The translations under genes and the position numbers were made by a program. The notes beneath the pieces are model-generated. The model searched no databases, had not been told where the DNA came from, and saw only the letters and a program-made list of their open reading frames with translations. This document shows, one piece after another, positions 50,876 to 60,646 of a stretch of DNA of 64,000 bases (position 1 is its first letter; each line of letters starts with the position of its first letter). Origin of the DNA: Sphingomonadales bacterium (GTDB lineage: Bacteria > Pseudomonadota > Alphaproteobacteria > Sphingomonadales > Kordiimonadaceae); the NCBI GenBank assembly GCA_011088215.1, contig JAALKD010000003.1, positions 29,763 through 93,762 of the forward strand, read 5' to 3'.

Positions 50876-52069
50876 ATGGCCGGCAAGCTTCAGCGCCCCT
50901 TAAGTGGGATCAAAGTTATCGAATTTACCCATATGGTAATGGGGCCAACGGTTGGACTGATTTTGGCGGACCTTGGTGCTGACGTGATCAAGATTGAACC
51001 AACTAAAGGTGACAATACCCGCCGACTTATCGGGTCGGGCGCAGGTTATTTTCCAATGTACAACCGCAATAAGCGTAGTATTTGCCTCGATATTAAAACC
51101 GAACGCGGCAAAGAAATTGCCAACAAGCTTATCGAAAAGGCAGACGTGTTCGTCGAAAACTTCCGACCGGGCGCCATGGACAAACTGGGTTTCAGCTATG
51201 ACGCCGTGTTTACCAACAACCCCAAACTGGTTTACTGTTCGGAAAAAGGATTTCTATCCGGCCCTTATGAAGACCGTGCCGCATTAGATGAAGTCGCACA
51301 GATGATGGGCGGTCTGGCTTATATGACTGGTCCGCCCGGCCGCCCGCTGCGCGCGGGTGCCAGCGTAACCGATGTTACTGGCGGCATGTTCGGGGCTATT
51401 GCTATTCTTGCTGCACTGGAAGAACGTCATCGCACAGGCAAAGGCCAATATGTCAAAAGCTCACTTTATGAAACAAGCGCCTTCCTGGTTGGGCAGCATA
51501 TGGCTCAATATGCAGTTACAGGTACGGCCGCTCGCCCCATGGCGGCTCGGATTTCTGCCTGGGCTATCTACGATATTTTTGAGACTTCAGATAATGATCA
51601 GGTCTTCGTGGGGGTAGTAAGTGATACCCAGTGGCGTCTATTTTGCGATGCATTCGATCTGTCAGAATTAGCCGAACACCAAGACTATGCACAAAACGCG
51701 GCACGAGTGGCAAAGCGCGATGAACTTATTCCAAAGATCGCCGGGATTTTCAAAAATTATACAAAAGCAGCATTGATGGAAAAGTTGGAATCGGCCGGAT
51801 TACCTTTCGCCCCAATCAACAGACCCGAAGATTTGTTCGATGACCCGCATTTAAGCGCTGGTGACAGTCTTATTGATGTTTCCTTATCCGATGGCGCCAA
51901 GGCGTCACTGCCTGCACTTCCAATCGAAATGGCTGGGAAACGCCCTGACCTCTATCAGGATCTGCCCGGCATCGGTGAACATACAAACAGCGTATTGGAA
52001 GAGATCGGTTATTCGTCCGAGGAAATTGAAATATTGGCGACTGACTTGGTAACAAAACGCTCAGGCTAG
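50876..52069 (+). CDS. Class III CoA-transferase (CaiB/BaiF)
   Basis: MVMGPTVG, VIKIEP, NRNKRSICLD, ENFRPGAMDKLG, SVTDVTGG. Confidence 0.92.
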   Translation: MAGKLQRPLSGIKVIEFTHMVMGPTVGLILADLGADVIKIEPTKGDNTRRLIGSGAGYFPMYNRNKRSICLDIKTERGKEIANKLIEKADVFVENFRPGAMDKLGFSYDAVFTNNPKLVYCSEKGFLSGPYEDRAALDEVAQMMGGLAYMTGPPGRPLRAGASVTDVTGGMFGAIAILAALEERHRTGKGQYVKSSLYETSAFLVGQHMAQYAVTGTAARPMAARISAWAIYDIFETSDNDQVFVGVVSDTQWRLFCDAFDLSELAEHQDYAQNAARVAKRDELIPKIAGIFKNYTKAALMEKLESAGLPFAPINRPEDLFDDPHLSAGDSLIDVSLSDGAKASLPALPIEMAGKRPDLYQDLPGIGEHTNSVLEEIGYSSEEIEILATDLVTKRSG

Positions 52070-53079
52070 CTTACGTGAACGATTTGCTTGCCTACGTTTT
52101 TACCGTCATAAAGCCGGATCAAAGCTGTTGGCATCATCTCTAGCCCCTCCAGTCGGTCTTCCTGATAGGTCAAATCACCACTAGCAATCCATTCCGCCAT
52201 TGTCGCCTCGGCTTCAGCAAACATCGGCGCATAGTCATAAACGAAAAAGCCCTGCATTTTAGCGCACATATGGCCGATTTCGCCCCAGTTCCGCAATCGG
52301 TAAGGCTCATCGTTCAAATATTCTGATATACGCCCACAACAAATGATCCGAGCATATTTGTTAATATGCAACAGCACTTGGTCAAGGATCGAGCCGCCTA
52401 CATTGTCGAAGAAAATATCGACCCCGTCCGGCGTCACTTGAGAAAGCGCTTCGCCAACGTCCTGATCACGGTAATTGATCGTCGCGTGGCACCCCAGTTT
52501 TTCCTCGAGCAAACGACATTTTTCGTTTGAGCCAGCAATGCCGATGACCCTGCAGCCCATGAGGCGTGCCAATTGCACCGCTGTGCTCCCAACACCGCCA
52601 AGCGCGCCTGAGACAACAACGGTTTCACCTTTCTTGGGTTTGCCAATATCCTTCAACGCGCAGTAGGAAGTAAAGCCAGTCATGCCGAGTACACCCAGGC
52701 CTGTGGCAATCGGCGCGACAGTTTGGCGAATGGCAAACATCAGACTACCCGGCGCGCCGTCCGCTACCGCATAATCCTGCCAGCCAAGCTTTCCTTGCAC
52801 GATTGTGCCAACGGGCCATTCGGTATTGCGGCTTTCGACAATTTCACCAACACCGCGGCCGCGCATCACATCACCGATTGCCAGAGGTTCTTCGATACCC
52901 GCACCATCAATCATGTAATTGCGCATAACCGGGGCAACCGAGAGATAGCGTGTGCGAAGTAGAAATTCGCCCTTCTCAATTGAAGGAATGGCTTTTTCCT
53001 GCAGGCTAAAGTCACTCTCTTTAACTGCGCCCACCGGGCGAGCTGCGAGACACCACTGTCGGTTTACTTTTACGGTCAT
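52066..53079 (-). CDS. Second NADP-dependent alkenal/ene reductase (MDR, prostaglandin-reductase-like)
   Basis: YLSVAP, LGVLGMTGFTSY, VSGALGGVGS, FFDNVGG, GKNVGKQIV. SD AAGGA. Confidence 0.9.
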   Translation of the reverse strand: MTVKVNRQWCLAARPVGAVKESDFSLQEKAIPSIEKGEFLLRTRYLSVAPVMRNYMIDGAGIEEPLAIGDVMRGRGVGEIVESRNTEWPVGTIVQGKLGWQDYAVADGAPGSLMFAIRQTVAPIATGLGVLGMTGFTSYCALKDIGKPKKGETVVVSGALGGVGSTAVQLARLMGCRVIGIAGSNEKCRLLEEKLGCHATINYRDQDVGEALSQVTPDGVDIFFDNVGGSILDQVLLHINKYARIICCGRISEYLNDEPYRLRNWGEIGHMCAKMQGFFVYDYAPMFAEAEATMAEWIASGDLTYQEDRLEGLEMMPTALIRLYDGKNVGKQIVHVS

Positions 53080-53189
53080 ACTTGTTTCCTTCACCGGAGT
53101 AAGCATGAAGAGAGAATACACTCGCTATGATGTAGATCATTTCCGCGCCGCATACCGTATAGCAGGCTCCGAAAAAAGGAGATTAACCT

Positions 53190-54002
53190 TTGAGCATCAC
53201 GCAATCTTTTGTGCAGCTACATCACGGACAAATACACTTCCGCCTCAAGGGCGACGGGCCACCGCTGATCCTTTTGCACCAGTCTCCACGTTCATCATCG
53301 GAATATTTGTCGTTGATTGAAAAATGGTCTGAGCAATTTCAGATCATCGCGCCCGACACGCCCGGCAACGGTCTTTCCGATGCGCTCCCTGGTAAGCCAA
53401 CCATGTTCGATTATGCCGATGCGCTGGTTGAATTTATGGATAAACTGGAGCTAAAAACCGTCTATCTATATGGTTTTCACACTGGTGCCAGTATCGCAAC
53501 CGCCGCCGCGTCCCGGTATCCGCATAGGATAGAATTTGCCATTGGTAATGGGCTTGCACTTCTGGAAGAAGATCAGCGCCGAGATTTTCTAGACAATTAT
53601 ATGCCCAAAATCGATTATCAGGCCGATGGGTCACATTTAAGTTGGCTTTGGAGCAGAATTCAGAAACAAGCCAAGTACTTTCCTTGGTACAGCACAAAAG
53701 ACAAAGACCGCCTGAGCATAGGGGCCTACAGCACCGAAAAATGTCAGGAAATATTGATGGATTTTCTGCTTGCCGGAAACAATTACCGCGCACCCTACAG
53801 GGCAGCCTTTGCTTTTGAGCCAGTAACTGCCGGCATTTTACCAGCCAACAATCTCTGTGTTTGCGCTTCAAAAACAGACCCTCTTTATCCGGGTTTGTTG
53901 AAGCTCCCCAAAAAACAAAAGTTCTTCGAAGCAGAAGACCACATTTCATGCGAAAAACAAGCACTGGATATTCTAAAAGAAAAGGCGGCCCAAGCTTATT
54001 AA
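53190..54002 (+). CDS. Second alpha/beta-hydrolase-fold protein with GFHTG elbow
   Basis: PLILLHQSPRSS, PDTPGNGLSD, YGFHTGAS. TTG start after SD AAGGAG. Confidence 0.82.
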   Translation: MSITQSFVQLHHGQIHFRLKGDGPPLILLHQSPRSSSEYLSLIEKWSEQFQIIAPDTPGNGLSDALPGKPTMFDYADALVEFMDKLELKTVYLYGFHTGASIATAAASRYPHRIEFAIGNGLALLEEDQRRDFLDNYMPKIDYQADGSHLSWLWSRIQKQAKYFPWYSTKDKDRLSIGAYSTEKCQEILMDFLLAGNNYRAPYRAAFAFEPVTAGILPANNLCVCASKTDPLYPGLLKLPKKQKFFEAEDHISCEKQALDILKEKAAQAY

Positions 54003-54010
54003 GCCACTTT

Positions 54011-54313
54011 TCATGAGCTGTTTTTTATCACGCTTATTTTTGTGCAGCTTGCCTGTATCCAACGAAGGTTGATGGCAACCCTGTCGCTATCTGGCTCGGC
54101 CCAGGCATTTGACACGGCGCGGTCCTGAATCCGGATCTCGTGTTCCATCAAAATAGACTTGCTCCATATTGTCAAACTCGCCCTCAAGCTAGGAAACCAT
54201 GGTATTAAAATCGCGCTTCAATACATCGGATTTATCAATCACTTCAGCAGGGTGGCCAATCCAATCAAACATGCGGTTGATAAAATCAACATACGTTTCA
54301 ACATCTTACTCAT
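54011..54313 (-). pseudogene. Remnant of a secreted CpcT/CpeT-like (bilin-lyase-family) gene
   Basis: ATG 54313 after GAGAGGA gives MSKMLKRMLILSTACLIGLAT. A frameshift leads into PAEVIDKSDVLKRDFNTMVS*LEGEFDNMEQVYF (TAG at 54191-54189). A second shift leads into DRAVSNAWAEPDSDRVAINLRWIQASCT, ending at TGA 54013-54011. Family assignment is from recalled N- and C-terminal motifs. Confidence 0.6.
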
Positions 54314-54379
54314 TTTAAAATCCTCTCCCTCTCAACACTCTGGCTAAGCCTGTATATTTACAAGTTAATTAATTGACAT

Positions 54380-54393
54380 ACTATTATATCAAT
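54380..54393 (-). promoter_or_regulatory. Degenerate operator copy upstream of the TonB receptor
   Basis: ATTGATATAATAGT on the minus strand, within the near-palindrome TACTATTATATCAATAGTA (54379-54397). Confidence 0.5.
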
Positions 54394-54513
54394 AGTACAA
54401 GTAATTAGCGCTGAGATCCAAACAATTGCGTAATTTTGATATGTCGTGGTTGCCAAAAAGTATCCAGCCGGGGAGTGAACCTAATTCAACGATCCTTATC
54501 GGAGGGGTATCAA

Positions 54514-56922
54514 ATGATTTACAAAAACAGACTGATGGCAACGGCGGCGATGAGCGTCGTGCTAGCTGTTCCCAGTCTTTCATCGTCTGTTTCAGCTCAA
54601 AATGCTGACGCCGACGACTTCGCAATTGAAGAAATTATTATTACATCGCGCAAGCAAGCCGCGAGCCTGCAGGACACGCCGATTGCGATCACAGCATTCA
54701 ACACTGAACAGATGATTCAGGCGGGCTTCAACAATATTATAGATGTCGCCAAAGCAACACCGGGTTTGTTTATCGAAGGCTATAATGATCGCAATGCGCG
54801 AGTTGCCACATCGCCGCGCTTCCGCGGCATCACCGTTGACAACAGCGACCCACTGCTGCGTACAGCTTCTGTCTTCATCGACGGGATATATGTGTCGGGC
54901 GGCATTCAGGGCCTCGGGGTTCAGGAACTGGAACGAATTGAAATTATTAAGGGCCCGCAATCTGCACTATTTGGGCGGAACACCTTTGCCGGTGCCATCA
55001 ACTATATTACCAAAGATCCAGGGGAAGAATTCAAGGTTGATATTTCAGGTCTTGCCGCCACCCGCGATGAATATCGTGGCTCCATCGGCATCGAAGGCGG
55101 CAGCGAAACTGTTACTGCCAGATTGAATGCAAGCTATGATTTTGTCGGCGGCCATTATGATAATGCCAACGACCTCGATCAGGAATTAGGCGAAGAGAGC
55201 ACATGGTCGATCAGTGGTACTTTGCTGTTTAAGCCAAATGAAAACTGGCGCGTAAAAGTACGCGGTCTTTACTATGAAGATGATGATGGCCCTGGAGCAG
55301 TTGCCCGCGTTGGCGGTTTTGCCGAGCATAACTTTGGCGGCTTCCCAGATGGCAACGGCGGCACGACTGAACGCGCTTTCCAGGGAACGCTCAGGATTCC
55401 GGACGATAGCGAAGTAGGCGCTAATACAACGGCAGCAGATTTTGATGCCGCGCTTGCTGCCCTCGCCAATCTGGGCACTGCAACAGACGTTGGTATCACG
55501 CTGGAAGAACTTGGCGGCTACGGCTTGAAACGGGAAGCTTACCGCGGCAGCTTCGATAGTTCGTACGATTTTGATAATGGCATGTCGTTTGATGTGCTGT
55601 TTGGTTACAACAAAGAAACTTATCTGTTCTTTGGTGATTTCGACAGTACTGGAACCTTCGGTTTCAATACATCCGGCACAAGCGATCTGGAAGATATCAG
55701 CATTGAATCCCGCCTCTCAGGAAAAGCTTTTGACGACAAGCTGACCTGGACAGTCGGAGGTAACTATTTAGACATTGATATCCTAACCGCTGGCGGCTTC
55801 TATGACGGCATTCTGGATTTCTGGTTCTCAGGTGTTATCGGGCCGGCGAATGCAACCGGCGCCAAAACAAAAGGTATCTTTACCACGCTGGACTATCAAA
55901 TTAACGAACAGTTTCAGTTGATCTTTGAGGGTCGTTACCAGGACGACGAAATTACCAACGCTGCTGTAACAAACGGTGTTGCGTCTTTTGACAAGTTCCT
56001 ACCGCGCGTGGTGTTAAACTATACGCCAAACGACGACACTCTGCTGTATGCTAACTACAGTGTCGGCAACCTTCCTGGCGGATTTAATGCTGAAGTCGCA
56101 GAGCTGGATGCAGAGCAATTGCGTCAGCTGGAAATTGACAACCCCGGCATCGACAGTTCGTTTAACGAGGAAAAACTCGAAAACTACGAACTGGGTTGGA
56201 AACAATATTTCAACGATCGGCGCGGCGTATTCAATTTGGCGGCCTTCTACATGAAACGAAGTGACCAGATTTTCTCTGGCTTTGCCTTCATTGATGAAAC
56301 CGACCCCAACGCACCCAATCCGGTTCGCACAGTGGCCTTCACTGGTAACGGTGCAACAACCAATATTTACGGGCTCGAATTAGACACCACCGTTAACCTG
56401 TCTGAAGCGCTAACCTTCCAAGGCTCGCTGTCATACATCGATGCCAAGATCGCAAGCTTCCCGGAAGGTGGTGGGTCTGGTGACTTCGGTGATGTGTTCG
56501 GCGACGATGCTGATGTAACAGGCCAGCGGGCACCGCGCTTCCCGAAATGGGCGTGGTCAGCAAACATGACATACGAAAAGCCGCTAGAAGCCAATTTCAT
56601 GGGTATGGAAGACGGTGTTTGGTTCACACGGGCAGACGTGTTCTATACGGGGTCGTTTTTCGACAGCAACACCAATCTGGCTGAAACGCAAACAGCCTAC
56701 GATGTAAACCTACGGACGGGCGTTCGTAACGGCGATATGTCGGTCGAGATTTATGTGTCAAACTTGTTCGGTGAAGATGCGCCGAGTTCTGCGAACAACA
56801 TCGCAGACACCAGTGCTGATGTGAGATTCGGCAGCGGCTTCTTCGACTTCTCGCAAGAAAGTATCCATGTTGCATTGCGCCGCAAACGCCAGTTTGGCAT
56901 GCGCTTCAACTATACATTCTAA
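54514..56922 (+). CDS. TonB-dependent receptor
   Basis: SD GGAGGGG, signal peptide, IEEIIITSRKQAASLQDTPIAI, RIEIIKGPQSALFGRNTFAGAINY, C-terminal RQFGMRFNYTF. Confidence 0.95.
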   Translation: MIYKNRLMATAAMSVVLAVPSLSSSVSAQNADADDFAIEEIIITSRKQAASLQDTPIAITAFNTEQMIQAGFNNIIDVAKATPGLFIEGYNDRNARVATSPRFRGITVDNSDPLLRTASVFIDGIYVSGGIQGLGVQELERIEIIKGPQSALFGRNTFAGAINYITKDPGEEFKVDISGLAATRDEYRGSIGIEGGSETVTARLNASYDFVGGHYDNANDLDQELGEESTWSISGTLLFKPNENWRVKVRGLYYEDDDGPGAVARVGGFAEHNFGGFPDGNGGTTERAFQGTLRIPDDSEVGANTTAADFDAALAALANLGTATDVGITLEELGGYGLKREAYRGSFDSSYDFDNGMSFDVLFGYNKETYLFFGDFDSTGTFGFNTSGTSDLEDISIESRLSGKAFDDKLTWTVGGNYLDIDILTAGGFYDGILDFWFSGVIGPANATGAKTKGIFTTLDYQINEQFQLIFEGRYQDDEITNAAVTNGVASFDKFLPRVVLNYTPNDDTLLYANYSVGNLPGGFNAEVAELDAEQLRQLEIDNPGIDSSFNEEKLENYELGWKQYFNDRRGVFNLAAFYMKRSDQIFSGFAFIDETDPNAPNPVRTVAFTGNGATTNIYGLELDTTVNLSEALTFQGSLSYIDAKIASFPEGGGSGDFGDVFGDDADVTGQRAPRFPKWAWSANMTYEKPLEANFMGMEDGVWFTRADVFYTGSFFDSNTNLAETQTAYDVNLRTGVRNGDMSVEIYVSNLFGEDAPSSANNIADTSADVRFGSGFFDFSQESIHVALRRKRQFGMRFNYTF

Positions 56923-57035
56923 GACAACGACCCCGGATGCAATCTGCAACCGGGGTTAACTAACCCTATTTTGTTTTGAGTATAGTCTCGGCTTCTAAAA
57001 TATATCTATTTTAGAGCCACCCTTCATGAAACTTC

Positions 57036-57064
57036 AAAGCCAGCTATAGTAGCTGGCTTTTTTT
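57036..57064. terminator. Bidirectional intrinsic terminator
   Basis: AAAGCCAGCTA-TAG-TAGCTGGCTTTTTTT. Two further hairpins lie upstream at 56930-56956 and 56990-57018. Confidence 0.85.
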
Positions 57065-57089
57065 CTCAGGTTCGTATCGACGGCATGCC

Positions 57090-57902
57090 CTAAGTTTCGG
57101 CTTTCCAAAAATTCGACTCTTCACCTTCGATACGCGCCAAACTCATATTCAGCTGATACAGATCAGGACGGTAAAGCACCGTAATAAATTCAACTGGTCG
57201 ATCATTACCGTCAAATACCACACGCATCACTTTCAAAAGTGGACTACCAACATTGACCCCAAGCGCTGGCGCGGTCTTACCGTCCGCCAATGTCGCAGTA
57301 ATAGACTGCCGAGCGCGCGAAATGCGCACACCGGCGCGCTCCAGAAGCGCAAGCAATGGCTGATTTTCCATCTCATCACGCTCAAAAGAATGTCCAATAT
57401 CCGCAGGCACGTATGTTTCAACAAATGAAAAGGGCGTATCATCTTTATGCCGAACCCGAATAGCGCGTTGCACCGAAGCCCCAACTTCAATATCAAGTGC
57501 CTCGGCCGCGCGCGGCGGTGCGCCCACATAATCAAATTCCAAGATTACAACATGAGTTTCCTGGGCAATGGTCAACAGGTTTTCGAGCAACCCATCCATT
57601 GTCTCTGCGCTTTTAGAGGGTACTGGTGTGGAAAAGGTTACCACTGTGCCGCGGCCGCGCTGGCGCGCAACCAAACCATCTGCAGCAAGTTCATCCAGCG
57701 CGCGTTTAGCCGTAATCCGTGACACGCCAAAAACTTTTTCAATCTCATGCTCACTCGGGATCAAAGAACCATCAGTATAGTCGCCAGAAACAATTTTCTC
57801 CCTGAGCAAGACATAAATCTGATGATACAGCGGTGTAGGCAAATCCTCACTGACCCGCTCGGTTGCCGAGAAGGATAACATTGACGACGTTTTTTTGTTC
57901 AT
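57090..57902 (-). CDS. GntR-family regulator (HutC subfamily, UTRA domain)
   Basis: PLYHQIYVLLREKI..G...IPSEHEI...FGVSRITAKRAL..L...G.VARQRGRGTVV plus UTRA-type C-terminus. Confidence 0.92.
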   Translation of the reverse strand: MNKKTSSMLSFSATERVSEDLPTPLYHQIYVLLREKIVSGDYTDGSLIPSEHEIEKVFGVSRITAKRALDELAADGLVARQRGRGTVVTFSTPVPSKSAETMDGLLENLLTIAQETHVVILEFDYVGAPPRAAEALDIEVGASVQRAIRVRHKDDTPFSFVETYVPADIGHSFERDEMENQPLLALLERAGVRISRARQSITATLADGKTAPALGVNVGSPLLKVMRVVFDGNDRPVEFITVLYRPDLYQLNMSLARIEGEESNFWKAET

Positions 57903-58021
57903 AGACCCCACCAAAAATTACTCAAGGACAAGAAGGTTGCCAAAAATTTCGCCTGAGCCCCTCACGCGAATTTAAGTGGCTATTGATGTGCATCAACGCC
58001 CGTCCACTTCAATCTACCTAT

Positions 58022-58035
58022 ATTGATATATCATT
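58022..58035. promoter_or_regulatory. ATTG-N-TATA-N-CAAT operator copy
   Basis: ATTGATATATCATT, sharing 15 consecutive bases (TATATTGATATATCA) with the 46420 palindrome; lies in the promoter divergent from the HutC-type regulator. Confidence 0.75.
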
Positions 58036-58120
58036 TGACCACAGTCCGCAATCACCGATACCGGTCAATTATAGTCTTTTACCAGGGCAGAAATTCAAGC
58101 TCAAACAAGGGAGATCGAGC

Positions 58121-58417
58121 GTGGCTGCATATATGGTTATTTTGGCCGAAATCCAAGACAGACAAGGTTTTATGTCTTATGCAAAAGAGGCTGCCCAGTT
58201 GATTGGAAAGTTTGGCGGCACCTACATTATTCACCGCGCCGAACGTTCCGAATGTCTTGAAGGTGATTGGCCGGATGAGACCAAAGTTGTTATATCTCAT
58301 TGGCCTTCATTTGAAGCCGCAAAAAAATTCTGGCAATCGCCAGAGTATGCCGAAATTAAGAAGTTGCGCCTGGGTAATTCGACCGTACGCGTTCGCCTTG
58401 TCGAGGCAGTTGAATGA
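58121..58417 (+). CDS. DUF1330-family protein (dimeric alpha/beta barrel)
   Basis: AAYMVI..I.D...F..Y......I.KFGG.Y, LEG.W, WPSFEAAKKFWQSPEY. GTG start after AAGGGAG. Confidence 0.85.
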   Translation: MAAYMVILAEIQDRQGFMSYAKEAAQLIGKFGGTYIIHRAERSECLEGDWPDETKVVISHWPSFEAAKKFWQSPEYAEIKKLRLGNSTVRVRLVEAVE

Positions 58418-59850
58418 CCGTGAGCACATCCCTAAAAGTGCGAAACCCCCGCACCGGTGAAAATGACTATGAAATTAGCGCCACCGCAAAAGAAGATGTC
58501 ACTTCGATTTGCACTGACCTGCGCTTGGCGCAAAAACACTGGGAGGCGTCCGGGCTGGAAAACCGGCTGTCTGTTTTGCGAGCATTTGCTACTTCAGTCA
58601 AATGGCACCGTGAAGAGATTTTAGCAGCCTTAACCGCCGATACAGGGCGACGCTACATTTCGTCAATGGAAGTGGACGGCATCGGGTCAACCGTTGAACG
58701 CTGGGCAAAAATCGCCAATGACCACGTGCCAGCCACGGGAACGTCATCGGCATTGCCATTCATAAAATACACTGTTGGATTTAAGGTGTATCCACTGGTC
58801 GGTGTCATTAGTCCATGGAACTTCCCATTAACCCTTTCATTGATTGACGCTCTGCCAGCATTGGTTGCAGGTGCGGCTGTCATTATAAAACCCAGCGAAG
58901 TAACACCGAGATTTGCAGCTCCGCTGCGCCGGGCGATAGCAGATGTACCCGAACTGGCTGCTGTATTGAAAGTGGTTGACGGTGCCGGTGAAACCGGCGC
59001 GGCACTGGTCGACAATGTCGATACAATTTGTTTCACTGGCAGTGTTGCCACAGGCCGCAAGGTGGGCGAACAGGCTGCAAGAAATTTCATCCCAAGTTTT
59101 CTTGAATTGGGCGGCAAGGATCCGGCAATTGTGCTCGCTAGCGCTGATGTCGAACGTGCCGCAACATCCTTGCTGCGCGCATCGACCCTCAACACTGGCC
59201 AAGCCTGCCAATCAATTGAACGAATTTATGTTGCTGAAGAAATATATGAAGAATTTTTGAAGCTACTTTGCCAAAAAGCAAAGGGCGTTTCGATCAATGC
59301 TGAGTCAATCGACCAAGGAATGATCGGCCCGGTTATTTTTGACAAACAAGCAACTATTATAGCTGACCAAATTGCCGACGCCAAAAGCAAAGGAGCCACC
59401 ATCCATACAGGTGGTGTTATCGAAAACCACGGCGGCCTCTGGTGCCGCCCAACCGTTATTTCAGGTCTCACCAGTGAAATGAAAATCATGCTGGAGGAAA
59501 CTTTTGGCCCGCTTCTGCCAGTAATCCCTTTTAAAACTGCAGACGAAGCCATCGCGCTTGCAAACAAGTCTGAGTATGGACTGAGTGCCGCCGTTTTTGC
59601 GGGGTCTGAGGAAGAGGCCTACGTAGTAGCAAACCAACTGGAGGCTGGCGGCATCAGCGTTAATGACGCCTCACTCACCGGACTGATGCACGAGGCTGAA
59701 AAAAACAGCTTCAAGCTAAGCGGCATGGGTGCGTCGCGCATGGGCATAAGTGGCTACACCCGCTTTTTCCGCAAACGGTCGATCATGACCAACACAGCGG
59801 ATGTTTTTGACATCAGTCAGTTTGACGAAGCGAATACCCCTAATGGCTAA
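58414..59850 (+). CDS. NAD(P)-dependent aldehyde dehydrogenase
   Basis: SPWNFP, KPSEVTP, FTGSVATG, LELGGKDP, NTGQACQSIER, EETFGP; ATGA overlap with DUF1330. Confidence 0.92.
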   Translation: MTVSTSLKVRNPRTGENDYEISATAKEDVTSICTDLRLAQKHWEASGLENRLSVLRAFATSVKWHREEILAALTADTGRRYISSMEVDGIGSTVERWAKIANDHVPATGTSSALPFIKYTVGFKVYPLVGVISPWNFPLTLSLIDALPALVAGAAVIIKPSEVTPRFAAPLRRAIADVPELAAVLKVVDGAGETGAALVDNVDTICFTGSVATGRKVGEQAARNFIPSFLELGGKDPAIVLASADVERAATSLLRASTLNTGQACQSIERIYVAEEIYEEFLKLLCQKAKGVSINAESIDQGMIGPVIFDKQATIIADQIADAKSKGATIHTGGVIENHGGLWCRPTVISGLTSEMKIMLEETFGPLLPVIPFKTADEAIALANKSEYGLSAAVFAGSEEEAYVVANQLEAGGISVNDASLTGLMHEAEKNSFKLSGMGASRMGISGYTRFFRKRSIMTNTADVFDISQFDEANTPNG

Positions 59851-59914
59851 ACCGTTGATGTAAGTCATAGCTTACCACCGGTACGTCTCAATAGGTTAAT
59901 CCGAGTATAATAAA

Positions 59915-60646
59915 GTGGACCCCTATATGACGCCCGAACTCATTGCTCTTATTACAGCGGCTGGCTCTATTGCGCTTTTGCACACTCTGATGGGCCCGGA
60001 CCATTATTTGCCATTTGTTGCACTGGGCAAATCGCGTGGCTGGAGCACAGAAAAAATGGCAGCTGTCACTGTTGGGTGTGGGCTGGGCCATTCGGTTGGC
60101 TCAATAGTTCTGGGACTCATAGGAATTTGGGCTGGAACCGCGTTGGACAGCCTTACCGGCATTGAGGGATTGCGCGGTGATCTTGCGGCGTGGGCGCTAT
60201 TGTCATTTGGCATTCTTTATATGGTTTGGGGTATTCGCCGGGCTGTGCGAAATAAACCGCACAGTCATTATCATGTCCACGCGGACGGTACGGGACATAC
60301 CCATAGCCATACCCACAAAACCGAGCATTTGCATGTGCATGAAGCGCCGGCAACCTCGCGCCTGAAGTTTGCACCTTGGACAATTTTCATCATCTTCGTG
60401 CTTGGCCCCTGCGAGCCCCTGATCCCCTTAATGATGTACCCAGCGGCTACCGTTTCGGCATTTGCCATGACGGCAGTGGTTGGCACTTTTGTGGTGGTGA
60501 CAGTGGCCACCATGACGGCGGTTGCGTTGGCGGTTTTCAAAGGGCTGCAATTTGTACCCGCAGCCTCTTTACAAAGATACACGCACGCGATCGCGGGTAG
60601 CACGCTTGCTTTCTGCGGTTTCGCAATCGTCGGCCTTGGACTGTAG
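59915..60646 (+). CDS. Nickel/cobalt transporter-like membrane protein (UreH/RcnA/NicO group) with His-rich loop
   Basis: LHTLMGPDHYLP, GLGHSVG, loop HSHYHVHADGTGHTHSHTHKTEHLHVH, LGPCEPLIP. Confidence 0.75.
   Translation: MDPYMTPELIALITAAGSIALLHTLMGPDHYLPFVALGKSRGWSTEKMAAVTVGCGLGHSVGSIVLGLIGIWAGTALDSLTGIEGLRGDLAAWALLSFGILYMVWGIRRAVRNKPHSHYHVHADGTGHTHSHTHKTEHLHVHEAPATSRLKFAPWTIFIIFVLGPCEPLIPLMMYPAATVSAFAMTAVVGTFVVVTVATMTAVALAVFKGLQFVPAASLQRYTHAIAGSTLAFCGFAIVGLGL

What the first reader, a model, noticed from the sequence alone, without database searches (positions are those of the whole stretch)
54011..54313. Hidden pseudogene: the two ends of a secreted CpcT/CpeT-like protein fused across a large deletion
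Seen: an unannotated gap holds an SD, a signal-peptide-like start, a frameshift, an in-frame TAG where Trp is expected (MVS*LEGEFDNMEQVYF), and after another shift RAVSNAWAEPDSDRVAINLRWIQASCT. From memory these match the N- and C-termini of proteobacterial CpcT/CpeT-like proteins, so most of the gene looks deleted. A bilin-lyase-family gene in a non-phototroph, divergent from a TonB receptor, is the strongest substrate clue, and its decay shows it is dispensable here.
Basis: partly seen in the sequence, partly recalled or inferred. Interest (0 to 1): 0.72.

Follow-up and report, generated by a model that had tools for sequence, protein, structure and literature searches.

The report
Decayed CpcT-like gene beside TonB receptor
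The unannotated gap holds the wreck of a secreted CpcT/CpeT-family gene that is still intact at the same spot in the closest relatives; this is ordinary gene decay, but it marks an unstudied protein family of non-photosynthetic bacteria.

Summary
On the minus strand, 54313..54011 is the remnant of a roughly 340-aa secreted, two-domain CpcT/CpeT-family gene.

- **Significance.** A family profile built only from other organisms hits the 64-kb window twice, both in this gap (E 1e-7 and 5e-7).
- **Synteny.** The two closest relatives found (receptor 94% and 86% identical) carry an intact 339/329-aa PF06206 gene at exactly this position: hydrolase, then CpeT on the opposite strand, divergent from the TonB receptor.
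- **Lesions.** Alignment to the closest relative shows six features:
  - a 1-nt frameshift in the signal peptide;
  - TGG to TAG at the invariant Trp;
  - a 416-nt deletion between TTTTGA repeats;
  - an in-frame 321-nt deletion;
  - an indel that removes the old stop;
- **Losses.** A sister clade of relatives has lost the gene without trace, so it was lost twice.
- **Age.** dN/dS of 0.15 on the retained codons suggests the decay here is recent.
- **Artefact check.** An independent Logan assembly is identical over 8.4 kb.
- **Paralog.** The genome keeps an intact distant paralog elsewhere.
- **Substrate.** The bilin inference is untested.

This is an ordinary pseudogene. The scan noted a similar intact CpcT-like gene paired with a receptor in another genome.

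The parts
54321..54331 (-). Shine-Dalgarno-like GAGGGAGAGGA, 7 nt upstream of the old start codon
   Evidence: Read directly. The upstream region aligns at about 84% with the intact gene's upstream region in L094.
54254..54313 (-). Codons 1-20 of the former signal peptide (MSKMLKRMLILSTACLIGLA), ATG at 54313-54311
   Evidence: It aligns with the L094 N-terminus MFKMLKNIIILSITCLIGLA. All family members start with a comparable hydrophobic leader. No signal-peptide predictor was run.
54239..54253 (-). Lesion 1: a 1-nt deletion in codon 21 (between 54253 and 54252) shifts the frame; premature TGA at 54241-54239
   Evidence: Gapped DNA alignment with L094 leaves L094 base 2739 unmatched.
54146..54251 (-). 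N-terminal segment of the mature protein (PAEVIDKSDVLKRDFNTMVS*LEGEFDNMEQVYFDG), equivalent to L094 residues 22-57. It carries the family signature W-x-G-x-F/Y-D-N-x-E-Q.
   Evidence: tblastn at 55-64% identity to intact relatives. HMM hit E 1e-7. 83% nt identity to L094.
54189..54191 (-). Lesion 2: TAG in place of the invariant Trp (W42 of L094, W36 of alignment A2). One G-to-A change from TGG.
   Evidence: The Trp is invariant in 30/30 sequences and present in L094 and L095.
54145..54153 (-). Lesion 3: junction of a 416-nt frameshifting deletion (about L094 residues 57-193). It lies on TTTTGA(TGG), which occurs as a direct repeat 416 nt apart in L094.
54116..54151 (-). Retained 12-codon mid-gene island LMEHEIRIQDRA, equivalent to L094 residues 194-205 (LTESEIWIQDRA)
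   Evidence: 16/18 nt identity to L094 2210-2193, and the match extends leftwards. My estimate of the chance expectation for such a match in the deleted interval is about 1e-5.
54116..54124 (-). Lesion 4: junction of an in-frame 321-nt (107-codon) deletion. It lies at the short similarity between D-R-A (mid-gene) and G-R-A (C-terminal) codons.
54038..54115 (-). C-terminal segment VSNAWAEPDSDRVAINLRWIQASCTK, equivalent to L094 residues 313-338. This is the end of the extra C-terminal beta domain and includes an invariant Cys.
   Evidence: tblastn at 64-74% identity. HMM hit E 5e-7. 80% nt identity to L094.
54011..54043 (-). Lesion 5: length change in an A-run (5 A here, 7 in L094) removes the ancestral stop. 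The frame runs 9 codons further to TGA 54013-54011.
   Evidence: 3' end comparison.
54369..54404 (.). Conserved 36-nt element in the divergent intergenic region. It contains ATTGA-N12-TCAAT and is kept at 94% identity even in relatives that lack the CpcT-like gene. Probable operator/promoter of the receptor gene.
   Evidence: Homology to genus relatives starts at 54369. L094 2856-2891 aligns to L096 and L097 at 94%. A promoter-like match lies at 54357-54384.
54514..56922 (+). Intact TonB-dependent receptor (802 aa), divergent from the remnant
   Evidence: Pfam Plug and TonB_dep_Rec_b-barrel. The identical protein is in an independent Logan assembly.
53190..54002 (+). Intact alpha/beta-hydrolase gene, convergent with the remnant (8 nt between the two stops)
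   Evidence: Pfam Abhydrolase_1. Same arrangement in L094-L100.

Best explanation
Window 54313..54011 (minus strand) is a dead gene. It is the relic of a roughly 340-aa exported protein with an N-terminal CpcT/CpeT-type beta-barrel domain and a C-terminal all-beta domain of about 105 aa.

**How it decayed.** In the ancestor the gene sat between the alpha/beta-hydrolase gene and the TonB-dependent receptor gene. It was transcribed divergently from the receptor across a shared regulatory region, inside a large catabolic gene cluster. In this lineage it lost 737 of 1020 coding bases through two deletions at short direct repeats (416 nt out of frame, 321 nt in frame). It also picked up a 1-nt frameshift in the signal peptide, a TGG-to-TAG stop at the invariant Trp, and an indel that removes the old stop. 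Nothing foldable can be made from it. The decay is recent relative to the split from the closest relative found, and it is independent of an older, complete deletion in a sister clade.

**Shown:** homology, synteny, the lesions, the two losses, and the fold of the intact orthologs.

**Inferred:**
- The deletions arose by slippage or illegitimate recombination at the repeats.
- The intact protein is periplasmic and binds a hydrophobic ligand handled by the cluster.
- The function is conditionally dispensable.
For: **Homology**
- The family HMM hits only this gap in the 64 kb, twice and colinear.
- tblastn with intact relatives gives E about 4e-9 for each end.
- Whole-genome search with the N fragment finds 58-67% identical N-termini of 324-348-aa ORFs in the same family and order.

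**Family**
- The G070 ortholog hits PF06206 at E 8e-29 over residues 38-221.
- The family profile hits PDB 4O4O (CpcT) at E 1e-11.
- The AF2 model of an ortholog has pLDDT 91. Its N-domain superposes on 4O4S/4O4O (target-normalised TM 0.76-0.77, E 1e-10), on Arabidopsis CRL and on phage CpeT.

**Synteny**
- L094 (receptor 94% identical) and L095 (86%) have intact 339/329-aa PF06206 genes at the same position.
- G070 and Eilatimonas (G106) have the intact gene next to the same oxidoreductase. In Eilatimonas it is also divergent from a TonB receptor.

**Lesions** are mapped base by base against L094.

**Independent losses**
- In the receptor tree, the window groups with L094 and L095 (support 97/97).
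- All seven gene-less loci form the sister clade (99/98).
- No remnant is found in the gene-less loci.

**Recency:** dN/dS is 0.15 over 90 retained codons against L094. Amino-acid identity is 79%, within the range of neighbouring intact genes (74-96%).

**Not an assembler artefact:** the Logan contig from SRR10987118 is identical over window 51514-59922, and no gene is called in the gap there.
Against: - The Logan contig probably derives from the same run as the genome, so it excludes assembler error but not a library artefact.
- The dN/dS estimate rests on only 90 codons, and dS is near or beyond saturation in the neighbouring genes.
- L094 and L095 are contigs from public runs of unknown purity, so statements about 'the same organism' for them are inference.
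- Export was judged by eye, not by a predictor.
- The ligand and role of the intact protein are untested.
Confidence: 0.93

Rival explanations
1. Assembly or sequencing artefact: the real organism has an intact gene, and the deletions, frameshift and stop are errors.
For: The genome is a 147-contig draft. Raw reads could not be inspected.
Against: - An independent Logan assembly is base-for-base identical over 8409 bp around the site.
- The locus is far from the contig ends.
- Six separate lesions of different kinds, including two deletions at repeats and a substitution, are not what short-read assembly errors look like.
- Relatives show that complete loss of this gene occurs naturally.
Confidence: 0.03
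2. The remnant is still used, for example as a small exported peptide (the 24-codon leader ORF), as the 58-codon TTG ORF 54187..54011, or as a regulatory RNA or untranslated region.
For: - The SD-like sequence and ATG are intact.
- The upstream regulatory region is conserved.
- dN/dS on the retained codons is low.
Against: - Low dN/dS is equally expected from recent inactivation.
- No Rfam family matches.
- Clade II relatives removed the whole stretch, keeping only the 36-nt intergenic element.
- The leader ORF is only a truncated signal peptide.
- 72% of the coding sequence, including most of both domains, is gone.
Confidence: 0.03
3. Chance resemblance of non-coding DNA to CpcT-like termini.
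For: The fragments alone give no Pfam hit.
Against: - Two colinear significant profile hits, with nothing else in the window below E=3.
- 80-84% nucleotide identity to an intact syntenic gene across all retained segments.
Confidence: 0.005

Closest known systems
T-type phycobiliprotein lyases CpcT/CpeT (Pfam PF06206, formerly DUF1001; PDB 4O4O/4O4S)
   Same: The intact orthologs match PF06206 and the CpcT chain. They share the N-terminal W..(D/E)F.N..Q signature that the remnant still shows. Their modelled N-domain superposes on CpcT (target-normalised TM 0.76-0.77).
   Different: - Exported leader.
- An extra C-terminal beta domain of about 105 aa with no PDB match.
- Four invariant cysteines.
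- Found in heterotrophs (Kordiimonadaceae, Acidobacteriota, Methylomirabilota and others).
- Embedded in a catabolic cluster, not next to phycobiliprotein genes.
- Sequence identity to CpcT is only about 20%.
- The copy here is a wreck.
Arabidopsis CRUMPLED LEAF (CRL; PDB 6LIX), a CpcT homolog outside phycobilisome biology
   Same: Same barrel fold (Foldseek E 4e-6). It is a precedent that the fold is used where there are no phycobiliproteins.
   Different: A plastid outer-envelope protein of plants (per bioRxiv 10.1101/2021.04.25.441383), single-domain, with an unrelated context.
Database-annotated 'CpcT/CpeT family chromophore lyase' proteins of Steroidobacteraceae and other Pseudomonadota (here called Type C), and the Type B proteins of Rhodospirillaceae and Gammaproteobacteria
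   Same: Same two-domain, leader-bearing architecture of 290-350 aa. The genome's own intact paralog (G000 contig C102, locus L088:6441-7361) belongs to Type C.
   Different: These are separate, well-supported clades. The pseudogene is Type A (C-terminus NLRW.QA.C). Its C fragment is roughly 40% identical (by-eye alignment, not computed) to the own Type C paralog, against 64-81% to Type A orthologs.
Ordinary bacterial pseudogenes formed by deletion between short direct repeats plus point lesions
   Same: This is exactly that kind: deletions at a 6-nt and a roughly 3-5-nt repeat, one frameshift and one nonsense change.
   Different: Nothing unusual, except that intact, decayed and erased states of the same locus are all available in close relatives.

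Membership tests
CpcT/CpeT family (Pfam PF06206) | Match to the Pfam model above its gathering score | tested here: not met
   The three fragments of the remnant give no PF06206 hit at E<=10, and the genome scan with PF06206 does not pick up the locus. This reflects their length: the syntenic intact genes in L094 and L095 carry PF06206, and the G070 ortholog scores 101 bits against a 21-bit cut-off.
CpcT/CpeT family (Pfam PF06206) | N-terminal signature W-x3-(D/E)-(F/Y)-x-N-x2-Q at the start of the barrel | tested here: met
   The remnant reads S*LEGEFDNMEQ. The stop sits on the Trp that is invariant in 30/30 family members, and F, D, N and Q are kept. The motif aligns with W13..D17 F18..N20..Q23 of chain 4O4O.
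CpcT/CpeT family (Pfam PF06206) | Calyx-like antiparallel beta-barrel fold of CpcT | tested here: met
   This was tested on an intact ortholog (L051), not on the remnant. The AF2 model has pLDDT 91.1 and pTM 0.84. Foldseek to 4O4S_A gives E 9.5e-11 and target-normalised TM 0.76. The remnant itself lacks about 72% of the coding sequence and cannot form the fold.
CpcT/CpeT family (Pfam PF06206) | Bilin binding and thioether ligation to a phycobiliprotein cysteine | not testable with these tools
   No biochemical data exist. The paper on the CpcT mechanism (PMC4175310) is not held, so the pocket residues could not be checked against a source. No paper on the heterotroph proteins was found.
Type A two-domain exported CpcT-like subfamily (defined here) | C-terminal motif (A/S)W.EP....(I/V).(I/L)NLRW.QA.C(T/S) ending the extra beta domain | tested here: met
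   The remnant reads AWAEPDSDRVAINLRWIQASCT. This is 74% identical to Eilatimonas and 81% to L094 over the C segment. Type A forms a clade with 99/97 support.
Type A two-domain exported CpcT-like subfamily (defined here) | Orthologous position in the conserved cluster | tested here: met
   The order hydrolase, CpeT, receptor, GntR, DUF1330, ALDH is identical in L094 and L095. The gene lies next to the ADH_N_2 oxidoreductase in G070 and G106.
Pseudogene | Disabling lesions relative to an intact ortholog, with no ORF covering the domains | tested here: met
   One frameshift, one nonsense codon, two deletions (416 and 321 nt) and loss of the ancestral stop. The longest remaining ORFs are 24 and 58 codons.
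Pseudogene | Lesions are real in the organism's DNA (supported by reads) | tested here: inconclusive
   An independent Logan assembly is identical over 8409 bp.

The most novel reading that the evidence does not exclude
The intact Type A protein could be the periplasmic carrier, or first processing factor, for a bilin-like or other tetrapyrrole-derived hydrophobic substrate. That substrate would be degraded by an uncharacterised catabolic cluster conserved across phyla. The cluster comprises family III CoA-transferases, an HMGL-like lyase, a LeuCD-like hydratase, a two-domain VOC-like protein, DUF1838, an isochorismatase-like amidase and PuuE-like deacetylases. Under this reading, the Kordiimonas series of intact, decayed and erased genes is a ready-made natural knockout set for finding that substrate.
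Probability: 0.1. Interest if true: 0.6.

Novelty: new member of a known kind. Interest (0 to 1): 0.3.

Why it matters
By itself this is one more bacterial pseudogene, so its weight is small. Its value lies in what it points to.

- It flags an exported, two-domain branch of the CpcT/CpeT family in heterotrophs. No study of this branch was found in the library searched.
- In the Type A clade, the gene is a recurrent member of one catabolic gene cluster in Kordiimonadaceae, Acidobacteriota and Methylomirabilota.
- Close relatives offer all three states of the same locus: intact, freshly decayed and cleanly deleted. The gene was lost twice. This makes it conditionally dispensable and gives a natural comparison for working out its ligand.
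- For annotation, the gap should carry a pseudogene feature.
- The genome's Pfam-invisible paralog on contig C102 should be named as a family member.

Tried and rejected
- **Pfam on the fragments.** No hit, because the fragments are too short.
- **PF06206 scan of the own genome.** The only hit (contig C16, E 0.14) lies antisense inside a fatty-acid oxidation gene, so it is chance.
- **Remnants in same-genus relatives.** DNA search gave the hydrolase-to-receptor synteny with a gap of about 240 bp. I looked for remnants there and found none.
- **Paralog displacement.**
  - The intact Type C paralog co-occurs with the cluster in exactly 6 of 32 genus genomes.
  - That suggested it might have replaced Type A.
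  - I rejected this as an explanation of the loss. Type C is an old, separate clade.
  - A Type C gene in the same context also occurs in the sample that holds the intact Type A gene (L103 and L094, both from SRR23272288).
  - Partial redundancy remains possible.
- **TonB-receptor adjacency as a family trait.** A receptor lies within 6 kb in only 4 of 41 family loci, so it is local to Kordiimonadaceae and a few others.
- **NCBIfam.** No model covers the family.
- **Literature.** Nothing was found on the heterotroph proteins. The CpcT structure paper is not held, so conservation of pocket residues was not assessed.
- **Rfam on the gap.** Nothing.

Full report
**1. What is in the sequence**

The gap lies between the alpha/beta-hydrolase gene (53190..54002, plus strand) and the TonB-dependent receptor gene (54514..56922, plus strand). 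On its minus strand it carries the following:
- an SD-like GAGGGAGAGGA at 54331-54321;
- an ATG at 54313;
- a leader-like 24-codon ORF that stops at 54241-54239;
- in another frame, AEVIDKSDVLKRDFNTMVS*LEGEFDNMEQVYFDG, with TAG at 54191-54189;
- back in the first frame, QDRAVSNAWAEPDSDRVAINLRWIQASCT, running to TGA 54013-54011.

**2. Is it more than chance?**

The fragments alone do not reach Pfam PF06206. The only PF06206 signal elsewhere in the genome is a chance antisense hit.

Searching genomes of the same order with the N fragment found 324-348-aa ORFs whose N-termini are 58-67% identical. tblastn with four such proteins gave two colinear hits on the gap:
- residues 18-55 at 55% identity (E 3.5e-9);
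- residues 298-325 at 64% identity (E 4.7e-9);
- 74% identity to the Eilatimonas protein for the C-terminal segment.

I built a profile HMM from 30 family members, none from this genome. Run against the six-frame translation of all 64 kb, it gave only these two hits (E 1e-7 and 5e-7). The next best hit was E 3.3.

**3. What family?**

The intact relative from G070 matches PF06206 (CpeT/CpcT) at E 8e-29 over residues 38-221, leaving about 105 C-terminal residues outside the model. The family profile finds the solved CpcT lyase 4O4O at E 1e-11.

An AlphaFold2 model of an ortholog has pLDDT 91 and pTM 0.84. Its N-domain superposes on several structures:
- CpcT 4O4S/4O4O, with target-normalised TM 0.76-0.77 and E 1e-10;
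- Arabidopsis CRL;
- a phage CpeT.

The all-beta C-domain found no solved counterpart.

All members begin with a hydrophobic leader and have four invariant cysteines. This fits an exported protein, although I ran no signal-peptide predictor.

A tree separates three clades:
- Type A ends in NLRW.QA.C. It occurs in Kordiimonadaceae, Acidobacteriota and Methylomirabilota.
- Type B ends in C.REGY.FR. It occurs in Rhodospirillaceae, Gammaproteobacteria and some Kordiimonas.
- Type C is described in section 7.

The remnant is Type A. The window's genus is Kordiimonas by inference: genome G010 of the same genus is the record titled 'uncultured Kordiimonas sp.'.

**4. The decisive test: the syntenic locus in relatives**

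Homologs of the neighbouring receptor led to contigs of closer relatives.
- L094 (receptor 94% identical) and L095 (86%) carry an intact 339-aa and 329-aa PF06206 gene at exactly this place. The flanks are the same: oxidoreductase, hydrolase, CpeT, receptor, GntR, DUF1330, ALDH.
- L096, L097, L098, L099 and L100 have hydrolase followed by receptor, with a gap of 218-288 bp and no gene. Genus genomes G004, G010, G012 and G022 show the same. Neither tblastn nor DNA alignment finds a remnant in any of them.
- Farther out, G070 and Eilatimonas milleporae (G106) have the intact gene beside the same ADH_N_2 oxidoreductase. In Eilatimonas it is divergent from an 820-aa receptor.

**5. Anatomy of the decay**

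These lesions come from alignment to L094.
- a. One nucleotide is missing in codon 21, giving a frameshift and TGA at 54241-54239.
- b. TGG has become TAG at the invariant Trp (54191-54189).
- c. A 416-nt deletion has its junction at 54153-54145 on TTTTGA. In L094 this hexamer occurs as a direct repeat exactly 416 nt apart (codons 54-56 and 193-195). The deletion shifts the frame.
- d. A 12-codon island is retained at 54151-54116, reading LMEHEIRIQDRA against LTESEIWIQDRA in L094 residues 194-205.
- e. An in-frame 321-nt deletion has its junction at 54124-54116, where D-R-A codons and G-R-A codons resemble each other.
- f. The A-run before the old stop differs in length (5 A against 7), so the frame reads nine codons further.

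In all, 737 of 1020 coding bases are gone. Deletion between short direct repeats by slippage or illegitimate recombination is the inferred mechanism.

**6. When, and how often?**

In a receptor tree the window groups with L094, and L095 joins next (support 98/97 and 97/97). All seven gene-less loci form the sister clade (99/98). One old complete deletion plus one separate decay in the window's lineage is therefore the minimum.

On the 90 retained codons, dN/dS against L094 is 0.15 and amino-acid identity is 79%. That lies within the 74-96% range of the intact neighbours. Most of the divergence therefore accumulated while the gene was still under selection, which points to recent inactivation. 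The sample is small and dS is close to saturation, so this is indicative only.

**7. Artefact, and paralogs**

As a substitute, a Logan assembly of run SRR10987118 carries the receptor on a 114-kb contig that is identical to window 51514-59922. No gene is called in the gap there. This excludes an assembler-specific error but not a library artefact.

Searching the own genome with the family profile revealed an intact 306-aa paralog on contig C102 (L088:6441-7361). It sits next to a DUF1838 gene, and Pfam does not recognise it. It belongs to the third clade, Type C, whose members are named CpcT/CpeT family chromophore lyase in some records. It occurs in the same six genus genomes that carry the cluster.

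A Type C gene in the same context also occurs in the sample that holds the intact Type A gene. The paralog is therefore not a replacement that explains the loss, although partial redundancy is possible.

**8. Function of the ancestral gene (inference)**

Type A genes recur with the same neighbours in other phyla:
- a family III CoA-transferase (9 loci);
- a two-domain VOC-like protein (11 loci);
- a LeuC-like hydratase, an HMGL-like lyase and DUF1838.

In the window these neighbours belong to a larger cluster. It also includes exported ABM and VOC proteins, an isochorismatase-like protein, two polysaccharide-deacetylase-like proteins, an MFS transporter, a HutC-type GntR regulator and an ALDH.

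The most likely role is a periplasmic binder or handler of a hydrophobic substrate of that pathway. Nothing tested points specifically to bilins. A TonB receptor lies within 6 kb in only 4 of 41 family loci, and no paper on the heterotroph proteins was found.

**9. Verdict**

This is a real but ordinary pseudogene of a known family, with a well-resolved history. The interesting residue is the uncharacterised exported Type A/B/C CpcT-like family and the natural series of intact, decayed and erased loci. I did not test that note.

Noticed in passing
G000 contig C102, locus L088:6441-7361 (+), with a DUF1838 gene at L088:7388-8299: An intact 306-aa, leader-bearing paralog of the same two-domain family (Type C) that Pfam does not detect. 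It is found in exactly the six genus genomes that carry the catabolic cluster, 35-72 kb from it in the more complete assemblies.
   Followed up: partly
window 54369-54404: A 36-nt element with ATTGA-N12-TCAAT in the divergent intergenic region. It is 94% conserved across species, including those that have erased the CpcT-like gene. Likely the operator/promoter of the receptor gene.
   Followed up: partly
window 38000-64000 compared with loci L048-L056 and L065: Much of the cluster recurs around Type A genes in Acidobacteriota and Methylomirabilota MAGs at 30-58% identity: CoA-transferases, HMGL-like lyase, LeuC-like hydratase, DUF1838 and the two-domain VOC-like protein. This is a cross-phylum conserved pathway with an unknown substrate.
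   Followed up: partly
It is the most frequent immediate neighbour of Type A genes in other phyla (11 loci).
   Followed up: no
window 53190-54002 (+): The alpha/beta-hydrolase next to the remnant evolves much faster than its neighbours. It is 74% identical to the L094 protein, against 94-96% for the receptor and GntR. It is absent from this position in G070 and Eilatimonas.
   Followed up: no
L082 (= G010 contig 1, about 1-14 kb), L015, L018: Some Kordiimonas species carry Type B CpcT-like genes elsewhere. In G010 one lies within about 3 kb of a receptor that is 40% identical to the window's.
   Followed up: no
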